7,348 nucleotides of DNA. It comes from a virus. Taxonomy: Monodnaviria; Loebvirae; Hofneiviricota; Faserviricetes; Tubulavirales; Inoviridae. Shown in pieces: positions 529-2,672 of the stretch; the first letter of the stretch is position 1, and each line of letters opens with the position of its first letter. The stretch lies in IMG/VR virus record IMGVR_UViG_2537562221_000013; one strand, written 5' to 3'. The notes beneath the pieces were generated by a model, which was given only the letters and a program-made list of their open reading frames with translations, was not told where the DNA came from and did not search any database. Position numbers and translations under genes: made by a program.

Positions 529-556
529 ATTTAACATAATATACATTATGCGCACC
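529..556 (-). other. dif: dif-type XerC/XerD site-specific recombination site (chromosome dimer resolution site), exact 28-bp match to E. coli dif, reverse orientation
   Basis: The + strand reads ATTTAACATAATATACATTATGCGCACC, the reverse complement of the canonical dif GGTGCGCATAATGTATATTATGTTAAAT. The XerD arm faces the IS2 side and the XerC arm faces the prophage. Confidence 0.85.
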
Positions 557-588
557 AATGGTAAGGATGGCAGAATCTGGCGGGAATC

Positions 589-607
589 GTTGACACTGGC
601 CGTCAAC
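589..607. repeat. Palindrome GTTGAC-N7-GTCAAC, 33 bp to the right of dif; candidate protein-binding site
   Basis: 6-bp arms at 589-594 and 602-607 are exact reverse complements. Function unknown. Confidence 0.4.
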
Positions 608-687
608 TGGCTACTATCGACAGTGATTCAAAATCATCCGTTTCTCCAAACGAATCAGAATCAAATGTCTGTCAGCAGTAAGTGAAC

Positions 688-710
688 GGCCTGACCTCAC
701 CAATCAGGCC
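688..710 (-). terminator. Possible weak intrinsic terminator: GC-rich 7-bp stem (GGCCTGA / TCAGGCC) straddling the stop codon of the 697..906 ORF
   Basis: Inverted repeat 688-694 / 704-710 with a 9-nt loop. On the minus strand it is followed by GUUCACUUACU, only a modest U content. Confidence 0.3.
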
Positions 711-906
711 TGTTCATCCAGTTAGTTGGTAAATCTGTACCTGATACACGAGAATCAAACACCACTTCTTCAGTGCCATCACCATGATGCCGGATAATCT
801 GGTAACCGGATTGCGGGTTCTGGCTCTCAGCTTCATAAGCAGCCCGGAATGCTGGATCTTTGAGAAGCATCACTTTCAGCTCCTGATGTGTCATGAATTT
901 TTCCAT
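697..906 (-). CDS. Hypothetical small protein (69 aa from the ATG at 906; the same frame is open back to an ATG at 945, giving 82 aa). The N-terminal motif resembles the N-terminus of some Xre-type antitoxins but there is no HTH domain.
   Basis: ORF-track 697..945. The ATG at 906 has a weak GGGG Shine-Dalgarno 6 nt upstream; the ATG at 945 has none. The N-terminus HQELKVMLLKDPAFRAAYEAE recalls the DPEVRAEYEAL-type motif from memory, not from a search. I checked the alternative frames and none restores an HTH. Confidence 0.45.
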   Translation of the reverse strand: MEKFMTHQELKVMLLKDPAFRAAYEAESQNPQSGYQIIRHHGDGTEEVVFDSRVSGTDLPTNWMNRPDW

Positions 907-1067
907 GATAAGCCCCGATGAATGCTGCCGCGCCGAATCAGCCATAACGCTGAAAATGGAAACTGTACGGCTTGGCCAACCCCGGACAGCAACAAAACAA
1001 GTTTTGTCACTGACCGGCGTTATCTTTCAAAACAGACAGTTAACGATTTTTTGTCTGGTGTTTATGC

Positions 1068-1094
1068 GTGAAATTTCGTGCGTACGAAATTCAC
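1068..1094. repeat. Imperfect palindrome/hairpin (GTGAA-A-TTTCG, loop TGCGTA, CGAAA-TTCAC) overlapping the stop codon of the 1091..1339 ORF
   Basis: 10 bp of pairing with a 1-nt bulge. No flanking T tract, so not an obvious terminator. Candidate operator or origin/packaging-type hairpin. Confidence 0.35.
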
Positions 1095-1339
1095 CACCAA
1101 TAAACAAACGGACGATGACTGACCGGAAAAGCAATGCCGTCAGCATCATGACCACGCATTACCTGATTGAGAAGCCTTCTGACTTCACGGCGCTCAGGCC
1201 TGGTCATCATCATATTGCGATACCAGGACGGCGATTTATCAAACCATCTGGCACAACTGGCAAAATGTGAACCTACACGACGATAAGACTTAAGGCGGCC
1301 ACCGGGAAGTCGGTCACGCGCCTTATTTTTTACAGACAT
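1091..1339 (-). CDS. Hypothetical small basic protein (82 aa), possibly nucleic-acid binding; phage cargo or regulatory gene between pIV and dif
   Basis: Strong RBS: AGAGGA then 6 nt then ATG at 1339. By my count about 18 Lys/Arg against 6 Asp/Glu. It lies directly downstream of pIV on the same strand with no terminator between. The overlapping + strand ORF 893..1270 has no comparable RBS. Confidence 0.5.
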   Translation of the reverse strand: MSVKNKARDRLPGGRLKSYRRVGSHFASCARWFDKSPSWYRNMMMTRPERREVRRLLNQVMRGHDADGIAFPVSHRPFVYWW

Positions 1340-1427
1340 AATAAATCCTCTAAGTAACTGAATACCTAGAAGATGTCGTACTGTTCATACCCCATAAAAG
1401 TTAACGCCATAATAAAAATCCATACAA

Positions 1428-2672
1428 TCAGTTCAGGTTGTCCCGGAACAGTTCACCGCTCCTCGCGGCGCTGCGGGGCGTCGCCCTGCTCCGGTCAACC
1501 TTTCTGACCTGAAGCATCACCATAATATCAGTCTTGTTGCTTTCACTGGTACGGGAACCGAAGAAGCTCCAGCCGGAACTGGCCTTACTGTCTTTCTGTT
1601 CAGCAAGGCCACCAAGTAAAATAATATCACCATCTGCAAGGCTGACTTCGGTTGTTACATCACGCTTGATAAGGGTTGGCGAGTTATTGACGCCGGTTTC
1701 AGTGGTCACAAAGTTGGAAAGCTGCTGCTGAATCTTGAGATCCATTGTCCGACTTTTGATTGATGGCGTTACGTTAAACAAAACACCGCTGGAACGATAT
1801 TCAACGGATTGCGTGGTCGTATTGTTATTCACCGTAACACTGCCCAGTACTGGCACATCAGAGCCGACTGAAAAAGACGCTGAGGCATTATTTTTTACCC
1901 GCAGTCGTGGCGCACTGACAACAGTAAAACGACTGTCGGTTTTAAGCAGATTGAAAATGGCATCAATGGAGCCGGTTCGAATATTGATAAAATTATCCAG
2001 TCCGGCAGCACCAACTGAAATATTGAATTTATCAGACAGAATTTTAGCCGCTAAAAGAATGCCGGAGCCGTCAGACTGCGAGGTCTGAACCTCAAAAACA
2101 TAACCAGAAACAACCACTTCATCACTCATCGTATCCAGCGAAGTGACCAGTGTTTTCAGGATGGCGATATCCTCTTTCGTACCATAATAAACCAGAATAT
2201 CACCGGTTCGATTAATGTAGTTGCTTGCCCCTGATGAACCTTTTAGCGAATCGTCAGAAATCACGGCTCCACTGTTATTGAAGGAGCCTGAAACGTAGCC
2301 GCCAAGAATATCAGACAGGTAGGCAACAGAACGGTACTGAGGCGTATAAGTCCATGTATAACGTGGCTTAACCGGCTCTTTCGGCGTATAGGGCGCGATA
2401 AAATCAACACCCTTTTTCGTCCATATTCGAATGTTCATATTGCCAAGATAACGGGTTACAAATTCCCGTTCATCAATATCAGGTGTTAACCTGAATGTAA
2501 TCATTCGTTCATCATTAACAAGCTGTGGATCTAGCATATACGGGACTTTAAGCACCTCACTATAAATAAGAGAAATAGCCTCCGGTAGCTTGACTTTATT
2601 TAATTCAAGCTCTGACCCTGCGAAAGCACATGAAGAAAATAGTAGCGTTAATGCGAGTAAAATCTTTTTCAT
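1428..2672 (-). CDS. Filamentous-phage pIV-type secretin (outer-membrane export channel for virion extrusion), 414 aa
   Basis: N-terminal signal peptide MKKILLALTLLFSSCAFAGSE. The C-terminal half has secretin-like motifs (VVSAPRLRVKNNASASFSVGSDVPV, ILLGGLAEQKDSK). It is the last gene of the module, directly after pI as in Ff phages, and its start overlaps the pI stop by 1 nt (TAATG). Confidence 0.85.
   Translation of the reverse strand: MKKILLALTLLFSSCAFAGSELELNKVKLPEAISLIYSEVLKVPYMLDPQLVNDERMITFRLTPDIDEREFVTRYLGNMNIRIWTKKGVDFIAPYTPKEPVKPRYTWTYTPQYRSVAYLSDILGGYVSGSFNNSGAVISDDSLKGSSGASNYINRTGDILVYYGTKEDIAILKTLVTSLDTMSDEVVVSGYVFEVQTSQSDGSGILLAAKILSDKFNISVGAAGLDNFINIRTGSIDAIFNLLKTDSRFTVVSAPRLRVKNNASASFSVGSDVPVLGSVTVNNNTTTQSVEYRSSGVLFNVTPSIKSRTMDLKIQQQLSNFVTTETGVNNSPTLIKRDVTTEVSLADGDIILLGGLAEQKDSKASSGWSFFGSRTSESNKTDIMVMLQVRKVDRSRATPRSAARSGELFRDNLN

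What the first reader, a model, noticed from the sequence alone, without database searches (positions are those of the whole stretch)
557..1427. Two uncharacterised small genes in the cargo position between pIV and dif
Toxins and other accessory genes carried by filamentous phages typically sit between the last assembly gene and the attachment site, as ctxAB does in CTXphi. Two minus-strand ORFs occupy that slot here. ORF 1339..1091 (82 aa) has a strong RBS (AGAGGA, 6 nt, ATG), is strongly basic and ends in FVYWW; no terminator separates it from pIV, so it is probably co-transcribed with the phage operon. ORF 906..697 begins MEKFMTHQELKVMLLKDPAFRAAYEAE, which resembles the conserved N-terminal motif of some HTH-type antitoxins and regulators, but an unrelated sequence follows instead of an HTH. 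I recognise neither protein. The pair could be a regulatory module, an addiction-like module, or a moron affecting host phenotype.
Basis: partly seen in the sequence, partly recalled or inferred. Interest (0 to 1): 0.65.

Follow-up and report, generated by a model that had tools for sequence, protein, structure and literature searches.

The report
Leader-gated small gene in filamentous prophage
The two small genes at the end of this E. coli filamentous prophage are real but already listed as unknown (YPO2280a/YPO2281 of the plague phage YpfPhi); the new point is that the first is switched on through a previously unnoticed 14-codon leader peptide and an RNA hairpin, a module shared by many other mobile elements.

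Summary
Both minus-strand ORFs exist at the stated coordinates and are under purifying selection. They are the CUS-1/YpfPhi genes YPO2280a (ORF1, 1339..1091) and YPO2281 (ORF2, 906..697). A 2014 review already calls them function-unknown and already compares their position with ctxAB.

They are not a two-gene cassette. ORF1 is present in every related dif-integrated inovirus examined, whereas ORF2 is often missing, truncated or replaced. An ORF2 homologue also occurs without ORF1 on a 3-kb Morganella plasmid.

Three things are new here.
- A conserved 13-15-codon leader ORF (window 1410..1366, MALTFMGYEQYDIF*) lies just upstream of ORF1. Its last codons pair with the ORF1 Shine-Dalgarno sequence in a hairpin supported by covariation.
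- Leader, hairpin and ORF1 form an autonomous module. It occurs in about 90 further loci from diverse metagenomes, often beside toxin-antitoxin genes and not near dif. It has no Pfam, PDB or Rfam match.
- The ORF2 N-terminus matches the N-terminal extension of an HTH antitoxin encoded beside a Gp49/HigB-type toxin, but ORF2 has no HTH.

The biochemical functions remain inferred. ORF1 is probably a translationally gated, very basic effector. ORF2 may be an orphan antitoxin-like binder.

The parts
529..556 (-). Reconstituted chromosomal dif site. The XerD arm is at 529-539 and the XerC arm at 546-556. Sequence from 543 onwards is phage-derived.
   Evidence: It matches E. coli dif exactly. Identity to the 9.6-kb episomal phage L143 begins at window 543. 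The full folded-type attP, two inverted dif-like sites around a GC hairpin, is readable in the F11 tandem junction and in L143.
557..696 (-). Non-coding spacer between ORF2 and the attP XerC arm. It is retained in phages that have lost ORF2.
   Evidence: It is 90-97% identical in L036 and L038-L040 although ORF2 is deleted or replaced there. Its ssDNA fold is no better than chance (z -1.4). It carries a promoter-like site on the opposite strand at 590-617.
697..906 (-). ORF2 (YPO2281 homologue), 69 aa, acidic (pI 5.2). The model has two N-terminal helices, a beta-hairpin and a disordered variable tail.
   Evidence: Supported. The N-terminal motif is shared with the pre-HTH extension of a Gp49-associated antitoxin. 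There is no fold match.
907..1090 (-). ORF1-ORF2 spacer with two strong hairpins, at about 1063-1095 (overlapping the ORF1 stop) and at 978-1021. It is a candidate cis element, either an end-of-operon structure or a single-strand DNA signal.
   Evidence: Inverted repeats I1 and I6. The ssDNA fold has z -3.74, with 0 of 200 shuffles as stable. The 969-1021 hairpin is retained in the Pantoea and Erwinia remnants and in L038-L040.
1091..1339 (-). ORF1 (YPO2280a homologue), 82 aa, pI 11.5. It belongs to a wider uncharacterised family with the C-terminal signature P.WW..n..TRP.RR...G.D.D..FP...KP..YYW.
   Evidence: dN/dS is 0.14. Length is constant at 82 aa in all but two of the 19 aligned homologues (83 and 79 aa), with 21 invariant columns. 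The profile search finds 153 clusters at E below 1e-3. There is no Pfam, NCBIfam, PADLOC or PDB match. The AF2 model is unusable (pLDDT 51).
1345..1374 (-). RNA hairpin that pairs the last leader codons and the stop (ATCTTCTAGGTA) with the ORF1 Shine-Dalgarno region (TACTTAGAGGAT). In many versions GACAT can also pair with the ORF1 start ATGTC.
   Evidence: Detected. It is the MFE structure in the 19 unique versions that were correctly extracted, at -9.5 to -18.3 kcal/mol. In the 12-bp helix, 93% of cells are paired against 40-60% in slid registers, and only 1 of 500 shuffles reaches the covariation score.
1366..1410 (-). Leader micro-ORF MALTFMGYEQYDIF*, 14 codons plus TAG. It starts 17 nt after the pIV stop and ends 26 nt before the ORF1 ATG. 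PGAP does not annotate it.
   Evidence: It is present in all 39 Enterobacterales loci in 18 nucleotide versions. In the last 8 codons the variable sites number 2, 2 and 7 at codon positions 1, 2 and 3. The Y-x3-D-I-F motif occurs in 56 of 66 wider-family loci. Tyr(-7) is kept in 53 of 54 unique versions using both codons.
1428..2672 (-). pIV secretin gene, given as context. It is the last assembly gene of the phage operon.

Best explanation
The interval holds three coding units and some cis-acting DNA, not a two-gene cassette.

(1) Leader, hairpin and ORF1.
- Shown: a 14-codon leader ORF ends inside the 5' arm of a hairpin whose 3' arm is the ORF1 Shine-Dalgarno sequence.
- Shown: the leader, the hairpin and ORF1 are conserved together in all related dif-integrating inoviruses, whatever their replication gene or secretin type.
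- Shown: the same trio occurs in about 90 unrelated mobile-element loci.
- Inferred: ORF1 is translated only when a ribosome occupies the end of the leader and melts the hairpin. This is translational coupling or attenuation of the cat/cmlA/ermC or tap-repA kind.
- Inferred: the conserved Y-x3-D-I-F nascent peptide probably makes the ribosome pause there.
- Inferred: in CUS-1 the leader begins 17 nt after the pIV stop, so ORF1 would be made from the late phage operon.
- Inferred, weak: ORF1 is a very basic, aromatic-rich, partly disordered 82-aa protein. I take it to be a nucleic-acid- or ribosome-binding effector whose dose must be kept low, possibly growth-inhibitory. It is an accessory 'moron' module rather than a phage core gene or a Xer factor.

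(2) ORF2.
- Shown: it is an independent, dispensable gene in the truly variable slot.
- Inferred, weak: its N-terminus is homologous to the pre-HTH segment of a Gp49/HigB-associated antitoxin and it lacks a DNA-binding domain. It may therefore act as an orphan toxin-binding decoy, an anti-addiction or anti-abortive-infection factor.

(3) Spacers.
- Inferred: the hairpin-rich ORF1-ORF2 spacer and the 140 nt before attP are probably cis elements of the phage.
For: Identity:
- The segment matches CUS-1-type prophages, a circular episome and Y. pestis (L007 and L008).
- The review PMC4266046 names the genes.

Coding status.

ORF1 linkage:
- It lies between a secretin gene and dif in phages with pII/X, Phage_GPA or Rep_trans replication genes.
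- Secretin identity falls to 23% while ORF1 stays at 65-85%.
- Nucleotide homology between divergent phages starts about 55-75 nt upstream of the ORF1 ATG, around the leader.

Leader.

Hairpin.

Autonomy of the module:
- Distant members at 35-60% identity carry the leader and hairpin in TA-rich or plasmid-like contexts with no dif close by.
- Their neighbours are HigBA, PIN/RHH and Fic genes.

ORF2 independence.

ORF2 antitoxin-like N-terminus.

Spacer structure.
Against: - No experiment or homology tells what ORF1 or ORF2 does.
- The ORF1 structure model is unusable, and ORF2 has no fold match.
- D-I-F conservation could be a by-product of RNA constraints, because GACAT/CTTC are complementary to the ORF1 AUG and SD. 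Only Tyr(-7), the fixed frame and the third-position variation argue for a peptide role.
- In 33 wider-family loci the leader has no stop after DIF and reads on into ORF1. Termination at that spot is therefore not essential to the mechanism.
- Covariation in the helix is modest: 2 pairs with double changes.
- The ORF2-antitoxin similarity covers only about 27-50 residues, and its E-value comes from a single pairwise comparison. The database-wide tblastn E-values were 0.5-4.
- Adjacency to TA genes may only reflect shared residence in accessory hot spots.
Confidence: 0.6

Rival explanations
1. ORF1 and ORF2 form a toxin-antitoxin (addiction-like) pair. Basic ORF1 would be the toxin and acidic ORF2 the antitoxin, in toxin-first order as in higBA.
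For: - The charges are opposite (pI 11.5 against 5.2).
- The order is toxin-like gene first.
- The ORF2 N-terminus resembles that of an antitoxin.
- The pair persists at dif in Brenneria with no phage present.
Against: - ORF1 is intact and under selection without ORF2 in many lineages, including a Pantoea remnant where it stands alone.
- ORF2 occurs without ORF1 on a 3-kb plasmid.
- The 184-nt structured spacer is unlike the tight coupling of TA operons.
- ORF1 matches no toxin family.
- No ORF2-like motif was found in the wider-family loci held.
Confidence: 0.1
2. The leader is only a passive coupling device, or an accident of RNA constraints. Any ribosome passing through opens the hairpin, and the peptide sequence itself has no function.
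For: - The D-I-F codons are the anti-AUG and anti-SD arm of the hairpin.
- Class B leaders read through without stopping.
- Known coupling leaders (tap, repY, mok; from my own knowledge) need no specific peptide.
Against: - Tyr(-7) lies outside the helix and is kept in 53 of 54 versions with both codons.
- The frame and the 25-31 nt distance to the ORF1 ATG are constant across 35%-identity homologues.
- Changes in the last 8 codons are almost all synonymous, apart from two tolerant positions.
Confidence: 0.3
3. ORF1 is an accessory factor for XerCD/dif integration or excision of the phage, analogous to XafT of TLCPhi.
For: - In Enterobacterales, every ORF1 locus where a dif site was found lies 0.1-2 kb upstream of it, in one orientation.
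- ORF1 survives in dif-adjacent remnants.
Against: - It has no Pfam match at E up to 1, so no DUF3653 match.
- The wider family, with the same leader, lies in loci with no dif close to the gene.
- The attP is of the folded CTXPhi type. From my own knowledge of CTXPhi, that type needs no phage factor.
- Dif-proximal remnants are expected passively, because deletions cannot remove dif.
Confidence: 0.05
4. The segment is non-coding phage intergenic DNA (origin, packaging signal) and the ORFs are spurious.
For: - In Ff phages the region after gene IV is the intergenic region (own knowledge; also stated for IKe and M13 in PMC7307601).
- There are strong hairpins at 907-1095.
Against: - Both ORFs show frame-specific purifying selection.
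- ORF1 has constant length and invariant residues across genera.
- ORF1 has homologues outside inoviruses.

The idea survives only for the spacers.
Confidence: 0.03
5. They are secreted virulence factors comparable to ctxAB.
For: - They occupy the same genomic position as ctxAB in CTXPhi.
- CUS-1 and YpfPhi modestly increase fitness in animals.
Against: - Both proteins are small and hydrophilic, and I see no signal-peptide-like N-terminus by eye.
- ORF1 relatives are common in environmental metagenomes.
- ORF2 relatives sit on cryptic plasmids.
Confidence: 0.03

Closest known systems
YPO2280a and YPO2281 of Yersinia pestis YpfPhi, and their CUS-1 homologues in E. coli O18:K1:H7
   Same: They are the same genes. 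ORF1 is 100% identical in Y. pestis NCTC5923 (L007, L008) and ORF2 is 97% identical. They occupy the same position next to attR/dif.
   Different: Nothing differs at the gene level. The literature gives no function and does not mention the leader ORF, the hairpin or the wider family.
Leader-peptide translational attenuators of cat-86, cmlA and ermC (own knowledge)
   Same: A short upstream ORF precedes the gene. The downstream gene's SD lies in the 3' arm of a hairpin whose 5' arm is covered by a ribosome at the end of the leader. The C-terminal leader residues are conserved.
   Different: No inducer is known. The peptide motif Y-x3-D-I-F is unrelated to those leaders. Half of the family lacks a stop after the motif. 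The controlled gene is not a resistance gene.
Translational coupling leaders tap-repA (IncFII), repY-repZ (IncI/IncB) and mok-hok (own knowledge)
   Same: Translation of a mobile-element gene depends on translation of a small upstream ORF that unfolds an inhibitory structure.
   Different: Those leaders are targets of antisense RNAs and are not conserved as peptides. The promoter scan found no candidate antisense promoter facing the leader, and ORF1 is neither a Rep protein nor a membrane toxin.
HTH (XRE-type) antitoxins encoded beside Gp49/HigB-type toxins, such as V. cholerae HigA2 (own knowledge)
   Same: ORF2 residues 3-29 share the K-x-x-T-H-x-x-[LI]-x5-D-x2-[FY]RAAYEAE motif with the N-terminal extension of such an antitoxin.
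   Different: ORF2 has no HTH domain, no adjacent toxin gene, and a beta-hairpin plus a disordered tail in its place.
ctxAB cargo of CTXPhi
   Same: The position is the same, between the morphogenesis genes and the attachment site of a dif-integrating inovirus.
   Different: There is no sequence or feature similarity. ORF1 is conserved rather than lineage-specific cargo, and neither protein looks secreted.
XafT (DUF3653), the Xer activation factor of TLCPhi
   Same: It is a small phage-encoded protein of a dif-integrating element (the paper is listed).
   Different: There is no DUF3653 match, the family is not confined to dif-linked elements, and the attP type differs.

Membership tests
Type II toxin-antitoxin pair (ORF1 + ORF2) | The two genes co-occur obligatorily. 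| tested here: not met
   ORF1 occurs without ORF2 in Morganella, Pantoea, several Xenorhabdus loci, L036 and L038-L040. ORF2 occurs without ORF1 on plasmid L144.
Type II toxin-antitoxin pair (ORF1 + ORF2) | The operon is compact, with overlapping or closely spaced genes. | tested here: not met
   A 184-nt spacer with two strong hairpins separates them.
Type II toxin-antitoxin pair (ORF1 + ORF2) | There is homology to a known toxin or antitoxin family. | tested here: inconclusive
   ORF1 has none. ORF2 shares only the N-terminal 27-50 residues with a Gp49-associated antitoxin.
Type II toxin-antitoxin pair (ORF1 + ORF2) | One partner is toxic and the other neutralises it. | not testable with these tools
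   This needs expression experiments.
XRE/HigA-type antitoxin (ORF2) | It has a helix-turn-helix DNA-binding domain. | tested here: not met
   ORF2 has no HTH Pfam match at E up to 1. The Pantoea comparator has HTH_3 at residues 37-86. The ORF2 model shows a beta-hairpin there.
XRE/HigA-type antitoxin (ORF2) | A cognate toxin gene lies adjacent. | tested here: not met
   There is no Gp49-like sequence in the window, the episome or related phages.
Leader-peptide translational attenuation or coupling (leader + ORF1) | A short translated ORF lies immediately upstream of the regulated gene. | tested here: met
   It is present in 39 of 39 close loci and 56 of 66 distant loci, with a codon-position pattern of variation. 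Translation itself was not observed.
Leader-peptide translational attenuation or coupling (leader + ORF1) | The SD of the regulated gene is sequestered in a structure overlapping the end of the leader. | tested here: met
   The hairpin is the MFE structure in the 19 correctly extracted versions. Cells are 93% paired against 40-60% in controls, and there are compensatory changes.
Leader-peptide translational attenuation or coupling (leader + ORF1) | The ribosome stalls on the leader, dependent on the peptide or on an inducer. | not testable with these tools
   Conservation of Tyr(-7) and D-I-F is suggestive only. Toeprinting is needed.
Xer activation factor XafT / DUF3653 (ORF1) | It has a DUF3653 HTH domain. 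| tested here: not met
   No Pfam match at E up to 1.
Xer activation factor XafT / DUF3653 (ORF1) | It is confined to Xer-exploiting elements. | tested here: not met
   Family members with the same leader lie in loci with no dif close to the gene.
ctxAB-like secreted toxin cargo | It has a signal peptide or a secreted enzyme fold. | tested here: not met
   Both proteins are hydrophilic (GRAVY about -0.8) and I see no hydrophobic N-terminus by eye. There is no toxin family match.
Ff-type intergenic region (packaging signal or origins) | The DNA is non-coding, with large single-strand hairpins after gene IV. | tested here: inconclusive
   The ORFs are coding. The spacer 907-1095 folds far better than chance. 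Function is untested.

The most novel reading that the evidence does not exclude
Y-x3-D-I-F is a new ribosome-arrest (sensor) leader peptide. It would gate synthesis of a new, widespread family of small, very basic effectors carried by phages, plasmids and TA-rich islands, including the plague-associated YpfPhi and ExPEC CUS-1. ORF2 would be an HTH-less antitoxin decoy that neutralises Gp49/HigB2-type toxins of the host or of rival elements.
Probability: 0.2. Interest if true: 0.75.

Novelty: new variant of a known kind. Interest (0 to 1): 0.5.

Why it matters
YpfPhi and CUS-1 are the filamentous phages linked to fitness of the third-pandemic plague lineage and of invasive E. coli K1. The genes at their ends are the only candidates for that effect, and the 2014 review names their function as an open question.

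This work gives those genes a testable anatomy.
- ORF1 is not free cargo. It is a tightly gated module shared with many mobile elements, so its control can be dissected with a few point mutations.
- ORF2 points to toxin-antitoxin interference.
- The leader motif, if it arrests ribosomes, would add a new natural arrest peptide.
- The family also shows that genome annotation pipelines miss a conserved 13-15-codon gene in about a hundred sampled loci.

Tried and rejected
Searches that found nothing:
- Pfam, NCBIfam, PHROGs and PADLOC gave nothing informative for ORF1. The only ORF2 hit was the function-unknown PHROG 6642.
- Profile searches against PDB sequences found only chance hits.
- The ORF1 AF2 model had pLDDT 51 and was not searched.
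- Rfam had no match in the window region or in five related loci.
- Literature searches for the gene names and peptide motifs found nothing on function. The Gonzalez 2002 paper is not held.

Hypotheses and leads dropped:
- I entertained the Xer-accessory hypothesis because ORF1 is always near dif in Enterobacterales. I dropped it once distant homologues with the same leader were found away from dif.
- The Pseudomonas 'homologue' L024 is spurious, because it lies inside a 960-aa enzyme gene.
- The 125-aa plus-strand ORF 893..1270 antisense to ORF1 shows no selection (rc frame 0, ratio 1.3-1.4).
- The two largest 'neighbour clusters' were antisense artefacts of ORF1 itself.
- No single conserved neighbour gene was found for the wider family.

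- Covariation could not be shown for the 978-1021 hairpin, because the sequences are too similar or too irregular.
Full report
WHAT THE WINDOW IS

The window is E. coli chromosome carrying a minus-strand filamentous prophage. The gene order is pII fragment, pV, coat genes, pIII/PuvA, pVI, pI/Zot, pIV. A perfect dif site lies at 529-556.

The prophage is flanked by an IS2 fragment at 1-336. The left flank matches the 'IS3-like element IS2 family transposase' annotated in strain 510016. An IS1-like ORF sits at about 7047-7322 and truncates the replication gene.

The target segment is 98.5-100% identical in about 96 of 5426 complete E. coli genomes. ORF1 is 100% and ORF2 97% identical at protein level in Y. 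pestis NCTC5923 (L007, L008). The segment is 99.8% identical to a 9565-bp circular E. coli record that is evidently the episomal phage (L143).

The review PMC4266046 identifies the two ORFs next to attR as YPO2280a and YPO2281. It states that they have 'no predictable functions' and notes that ctxAB occupies this position in CTXPhi.

CHECK OF THE OBSERVATION

- ORF1 (1339..1091) and ORF2 (906..697) are as described.
- All ORF2 homologues and the PHROG 6642 profile start at the 906 Met. The PGAP start is 894 and the longest ORF starts at 945.
- ORF1 is under strong purifying selection in its frame. Over 25 unique sequences the median dN/dS is 0.14, against about 1.3 in control frames.
- ORF1 is 82 aa in all but two of the 19 aligned homologues (83 and 79 aa), with 21 invariant columns.
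- ORF2 is also selected (pN/pS 0.45 overall, 0.15-0.27 between E. coli and Brenneria, about 1.2 in controls).
- The 'non-coding DNA' refutation therefore fails for both ORFs.

ANATOMY OF THE PHAGE END

The F11 tandem junction and the episome give the attP. Two inverted dif-like sites flank a GC-rich hairpin, a CTXPhi-style folded site. Phage identity in the window begins at 543, inside dif.

Reading in the phage sense, the order is:
- pIV stop (1428)
- 17 nt
- leader ORF (1410..1366)
- hairpin (1374..1345)
- ORF1
- a 184-nt spacer with two strong hairpins (ssDNA fold z -3.74)
- ORF2
- 140 nt of non-coding DNA
- attP/dif

ORF1 AND ORF2 ARE NOT A CASSETTE

ORF1 homologues at 65-100% identity lie between a secretin gene and dif in three kinds of inovirus:
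- pII/X replication genes in E. coli, Yersinia and Brenneria
- Phage_GPA in Xenorhabdus
- Rep_trans plus Ff-like G5P, G7P and G8P in Morganella

The neighbouring secretin falls to 23% identity while ORF1 stays conserved.

ORF2 behaves differently:
- It is absent in Morganella, Pantoea and several Xenorhabdus loci.
- It is replaced in L036.
- It has lost its 5' half in L038-L040, through deletion of window 752-916, while both flanking spacers are kept.
- It is internally deleted in L032.
- It carries an in-frame stop in three Xenorhabdus loci.
- A 68%-identical ORF2 homologue is one of two annotated genes on a 3-kb Morganella plasmid that has no ORF1.
- In relatives, the slot between ORF1 and dif holds unrelated small genes.

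ORF2 therefore sits in the true cargo slot, whereas ORF1 is a conserved fixture. In Pantoea and Brenneria, the leader and ORF1 (with ORF2 in Brenneria) sit at dif beside ordinary chromosomal genes. These are most simply decayed prophage ends.

THE LEADER AND THE HAIRPIN (NEW)

Nucleotide similarity between otherwise unrelated phages begins about 55-75 nt upstream of the ORF1 ATG. That stretch reads as a micro-ORF of 13-15 codons ending G-Y-E-(Q/M)-x-D-I-F-stop.

- It is present in all 39 loci, in 18 nucleotide versions, 24-29 nt before the ORF1 ATG.
- In its last eight codons the variable sites number 2, 2 and 7 at codon positions 1, 2 and 3. The non-synonymous changes are confined to two positions.
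- Its final codons and stop (ATCTTCTAGGTA) pair with TACTTAGAGGAT, which contains the ORF1 SD. In many versions GACAT also pairs with the start ATGTC.
- The hairpin is the predicted MFE structure in the 19 unique versions that were correctly extracted, at -9.5 to -18.3 kcal/mol.
- On a 21-sequence alignment, 93% of cells pair against 40-60% in slid registers. Only 1 of 500 shuffles reaches the covariation score, and there are compensatory changes at two pairs.
- PGAP annotates nothing here, and Rfam has no match.

A WIDER FAMILY

An exhaustive profile search found 153 clusters of small proteins (49-146 aa among the 150 listed). They share the ORF1 C-terminal half, with the signature P.WW..n..TRP.RR...G.D.D..FP...KP..YYW. 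They have no Pfam or PDB match.

Members at 35-60% identity come from marine, soil and freshwater metagenomes and from Endozoicomonas. They are not in inoviruses, and no dif site lies close to the gene. The two dif-like hits found are more than 9 kb away.

Most of them still carry the leader and hairpin:
- Of 66 loci, 23 have a leader that stops right after DIF.
- In 33, the stop is replaced by CAG or CCG, and the leader reads on into ORF1 in varying frames.
- 10 escaped my pattern, several with near-variants such as D-F-L, G-I-F or ...VL*.
- Over 54 unique versions from 92 loci, Tyr at -7, outside the helix, is kept in 53 using both codons (TAT 32, TAC 21). The Phe-to-ATG distance is 25-31 nt.

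No single neighbour gene is conserved. HigB/HigA, PIN/RHH and Fic genes recur beside the module. Leader, hairpin and ORF1 thus form an autonomous, mobile unit.

MECHANISM

Shown: the geometry and its conservation.

Inferred: ORF1 is translated only when a ribosome at the end of the leader holds the 5' arm and frees the SD and AUG. This is the design of the cat/cmlA/ermC attenuators and of the tap-repA, repY-repZ and mok-hok coupling systems (my own knowledge).

Peptide-level conservation suggests a nascent-peptide pause, but the D-I-F codons are also the anti-SD and anti-AUG sequence. A purely RNA-level explanation therefore keeps about 0.3 probability.

In CUS-1 the leader follows pIV by 17 nt with no canonical terminator or promoter between them. 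ORF1 would then be expressed with the late operon.

What ORF1 does is unknown. Its charge (pI 11.5), its conserved Arg, Pro and aromatic residues, its poor structure prediction and its elaborate gating suggest to me a dose-sensitive nucleic-acid- or ribosome-binding effector. This is inference only.

ORF2

The AF2 model (pLDDT 70) shows two helices, a beta-hairpin and a disordered tail. It has no fold match.

A tblastn search with the first 31 residues found:
- the phage itself
- hypothetical genes on tiny Morganella and Proteus plasmids
- weakly, 'helix-turn-helix transcriptional regulators' of Pantoea

One of the Pantoea regulators follows a Gp49 (HigB-type) toxin gene. It aligns with ORF2 over residues 3-51 (pairwise E 5e-7), and its HTH_3 domain starts where the similarity fades.

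It also suggests that ORF2 is a DNA-binding-less relative of the antitoxin N-terminal segment. From my own knowledge, that segment is the toxin-neutralising part in HigA2. An orphan decoy against such toxins is my best guess, at roughly 0.3.

COMPARISON AND NOVELTY

The genes are known and were left unexplained. The UPPhi paper likewise reports two unknown genes in this slot and found homology between UPPhi901 and YpfPhi only for genes II and V.

I found no report of the leader ORF, the SD-sequestering hairpin, the breadth of the ORF1 family or the ORF2-antitoxin link.

The regulatory principle is a known kind, while the peptide motif and the protein family are new. I therefore rate this 'new variant of a known kind', with interest 0.5.

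Noticed in passing
window 6629-7348 and 1-336: The prophage in this window is defective. Only the C-terminal G2P_X_C part of the replication gene remains (6629-6943). An IS1-like InsA ORF follows at 7047-7322. An IS2 transposase fragment lies at 1-336 on the chromosomal side of dif.
   Followed up: partly
L002 about 18020-18120 (F11 tandem junction) and L143 258-350: Strain F11 carries the prophage in tandem. The junction and a 9565-bp circular E. coli record (deposited as an untypable plasmid) show the complete attP. It consists of two inverted dif-like sites (GGTTCGCACAA...TTATGCTAAAG and TTTCAACATAA...TTATGCGCACC) around a GC-rich hairpin, the CTXPhi-type folded site.
   Followed up: partly
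window 590-617 (+ strand): A good sigma-70-like site (TTGACA, 16 nt, TACTAT; 10 of 12 matches) points antisense towards ORF2 from the non-coding spacer beside attP. No plus-strand gene follows it.
   Followed up: no
L017 5611-5820; L015 5611-5820; L018 3941-4175; L019 4576-4815; L045 4635-4865; L003 10667-10870: A conserved non-coding element of about 200 nt (ATGCCC-TTTA-GGGCAT hairpin, CCGCCGATAC, GGAGACAAAAGAA) occurs in Xenorhabdus inoviruses. It lies either between pIV and the leader or after ORF1. It has no Rfam match and may be the phage single-strand origin or packaging signal.
   Followed up: partly
L144 1482-1664 (Morganella 3-kb plasmid); also Proteus plasmid NC_019374.1: ORF2 homologues (55-68% identical) sit on very small cryptic plasmids. 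The only other annotated gene on the Morganella plasmid is an HTH_36/DnaD_N Rep-like protein. This suggests that ORF2 benefits minimal replicons in general.
   Followed up: partly
L038-L041 against the window: Phages whose secretin is only about 27% identical to the window's (Morganella-type pIV) carry the leader and ORF1 at 80-84% identity. The spacer next to attP is 91-97% identical in L038-L040. This indicates exchange of the dif-proximal end between different inovirus backbones.
   Followed up: partly
leader peptides of class A (window 1410..1366; L053, L050, L052): Leaders that stop after the motif end in an acidic and aromatic tail with a free C-terminal Phe (...YDIF, ...EQDIF, ...DWDDF). 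From memory this resembles the SSB C-terminal tip (...DDDIPF). Half of the family has the motif internally, so this is probably a coincidence.
   Followed up: no
L004 11105-11302 and L003 11489-11686: The cargo slots of the Morganella and Xenorhabdus relatives hold other small antitoxin-like ORFs, namely a TacA1-like weak Pfam hit and a 65-aa protein (MKDESLHEWDVVDFIKTKEEILFYL...). The dif-proximal slot therefore repeatedly collects TA-related fragments.
   Followed up: no
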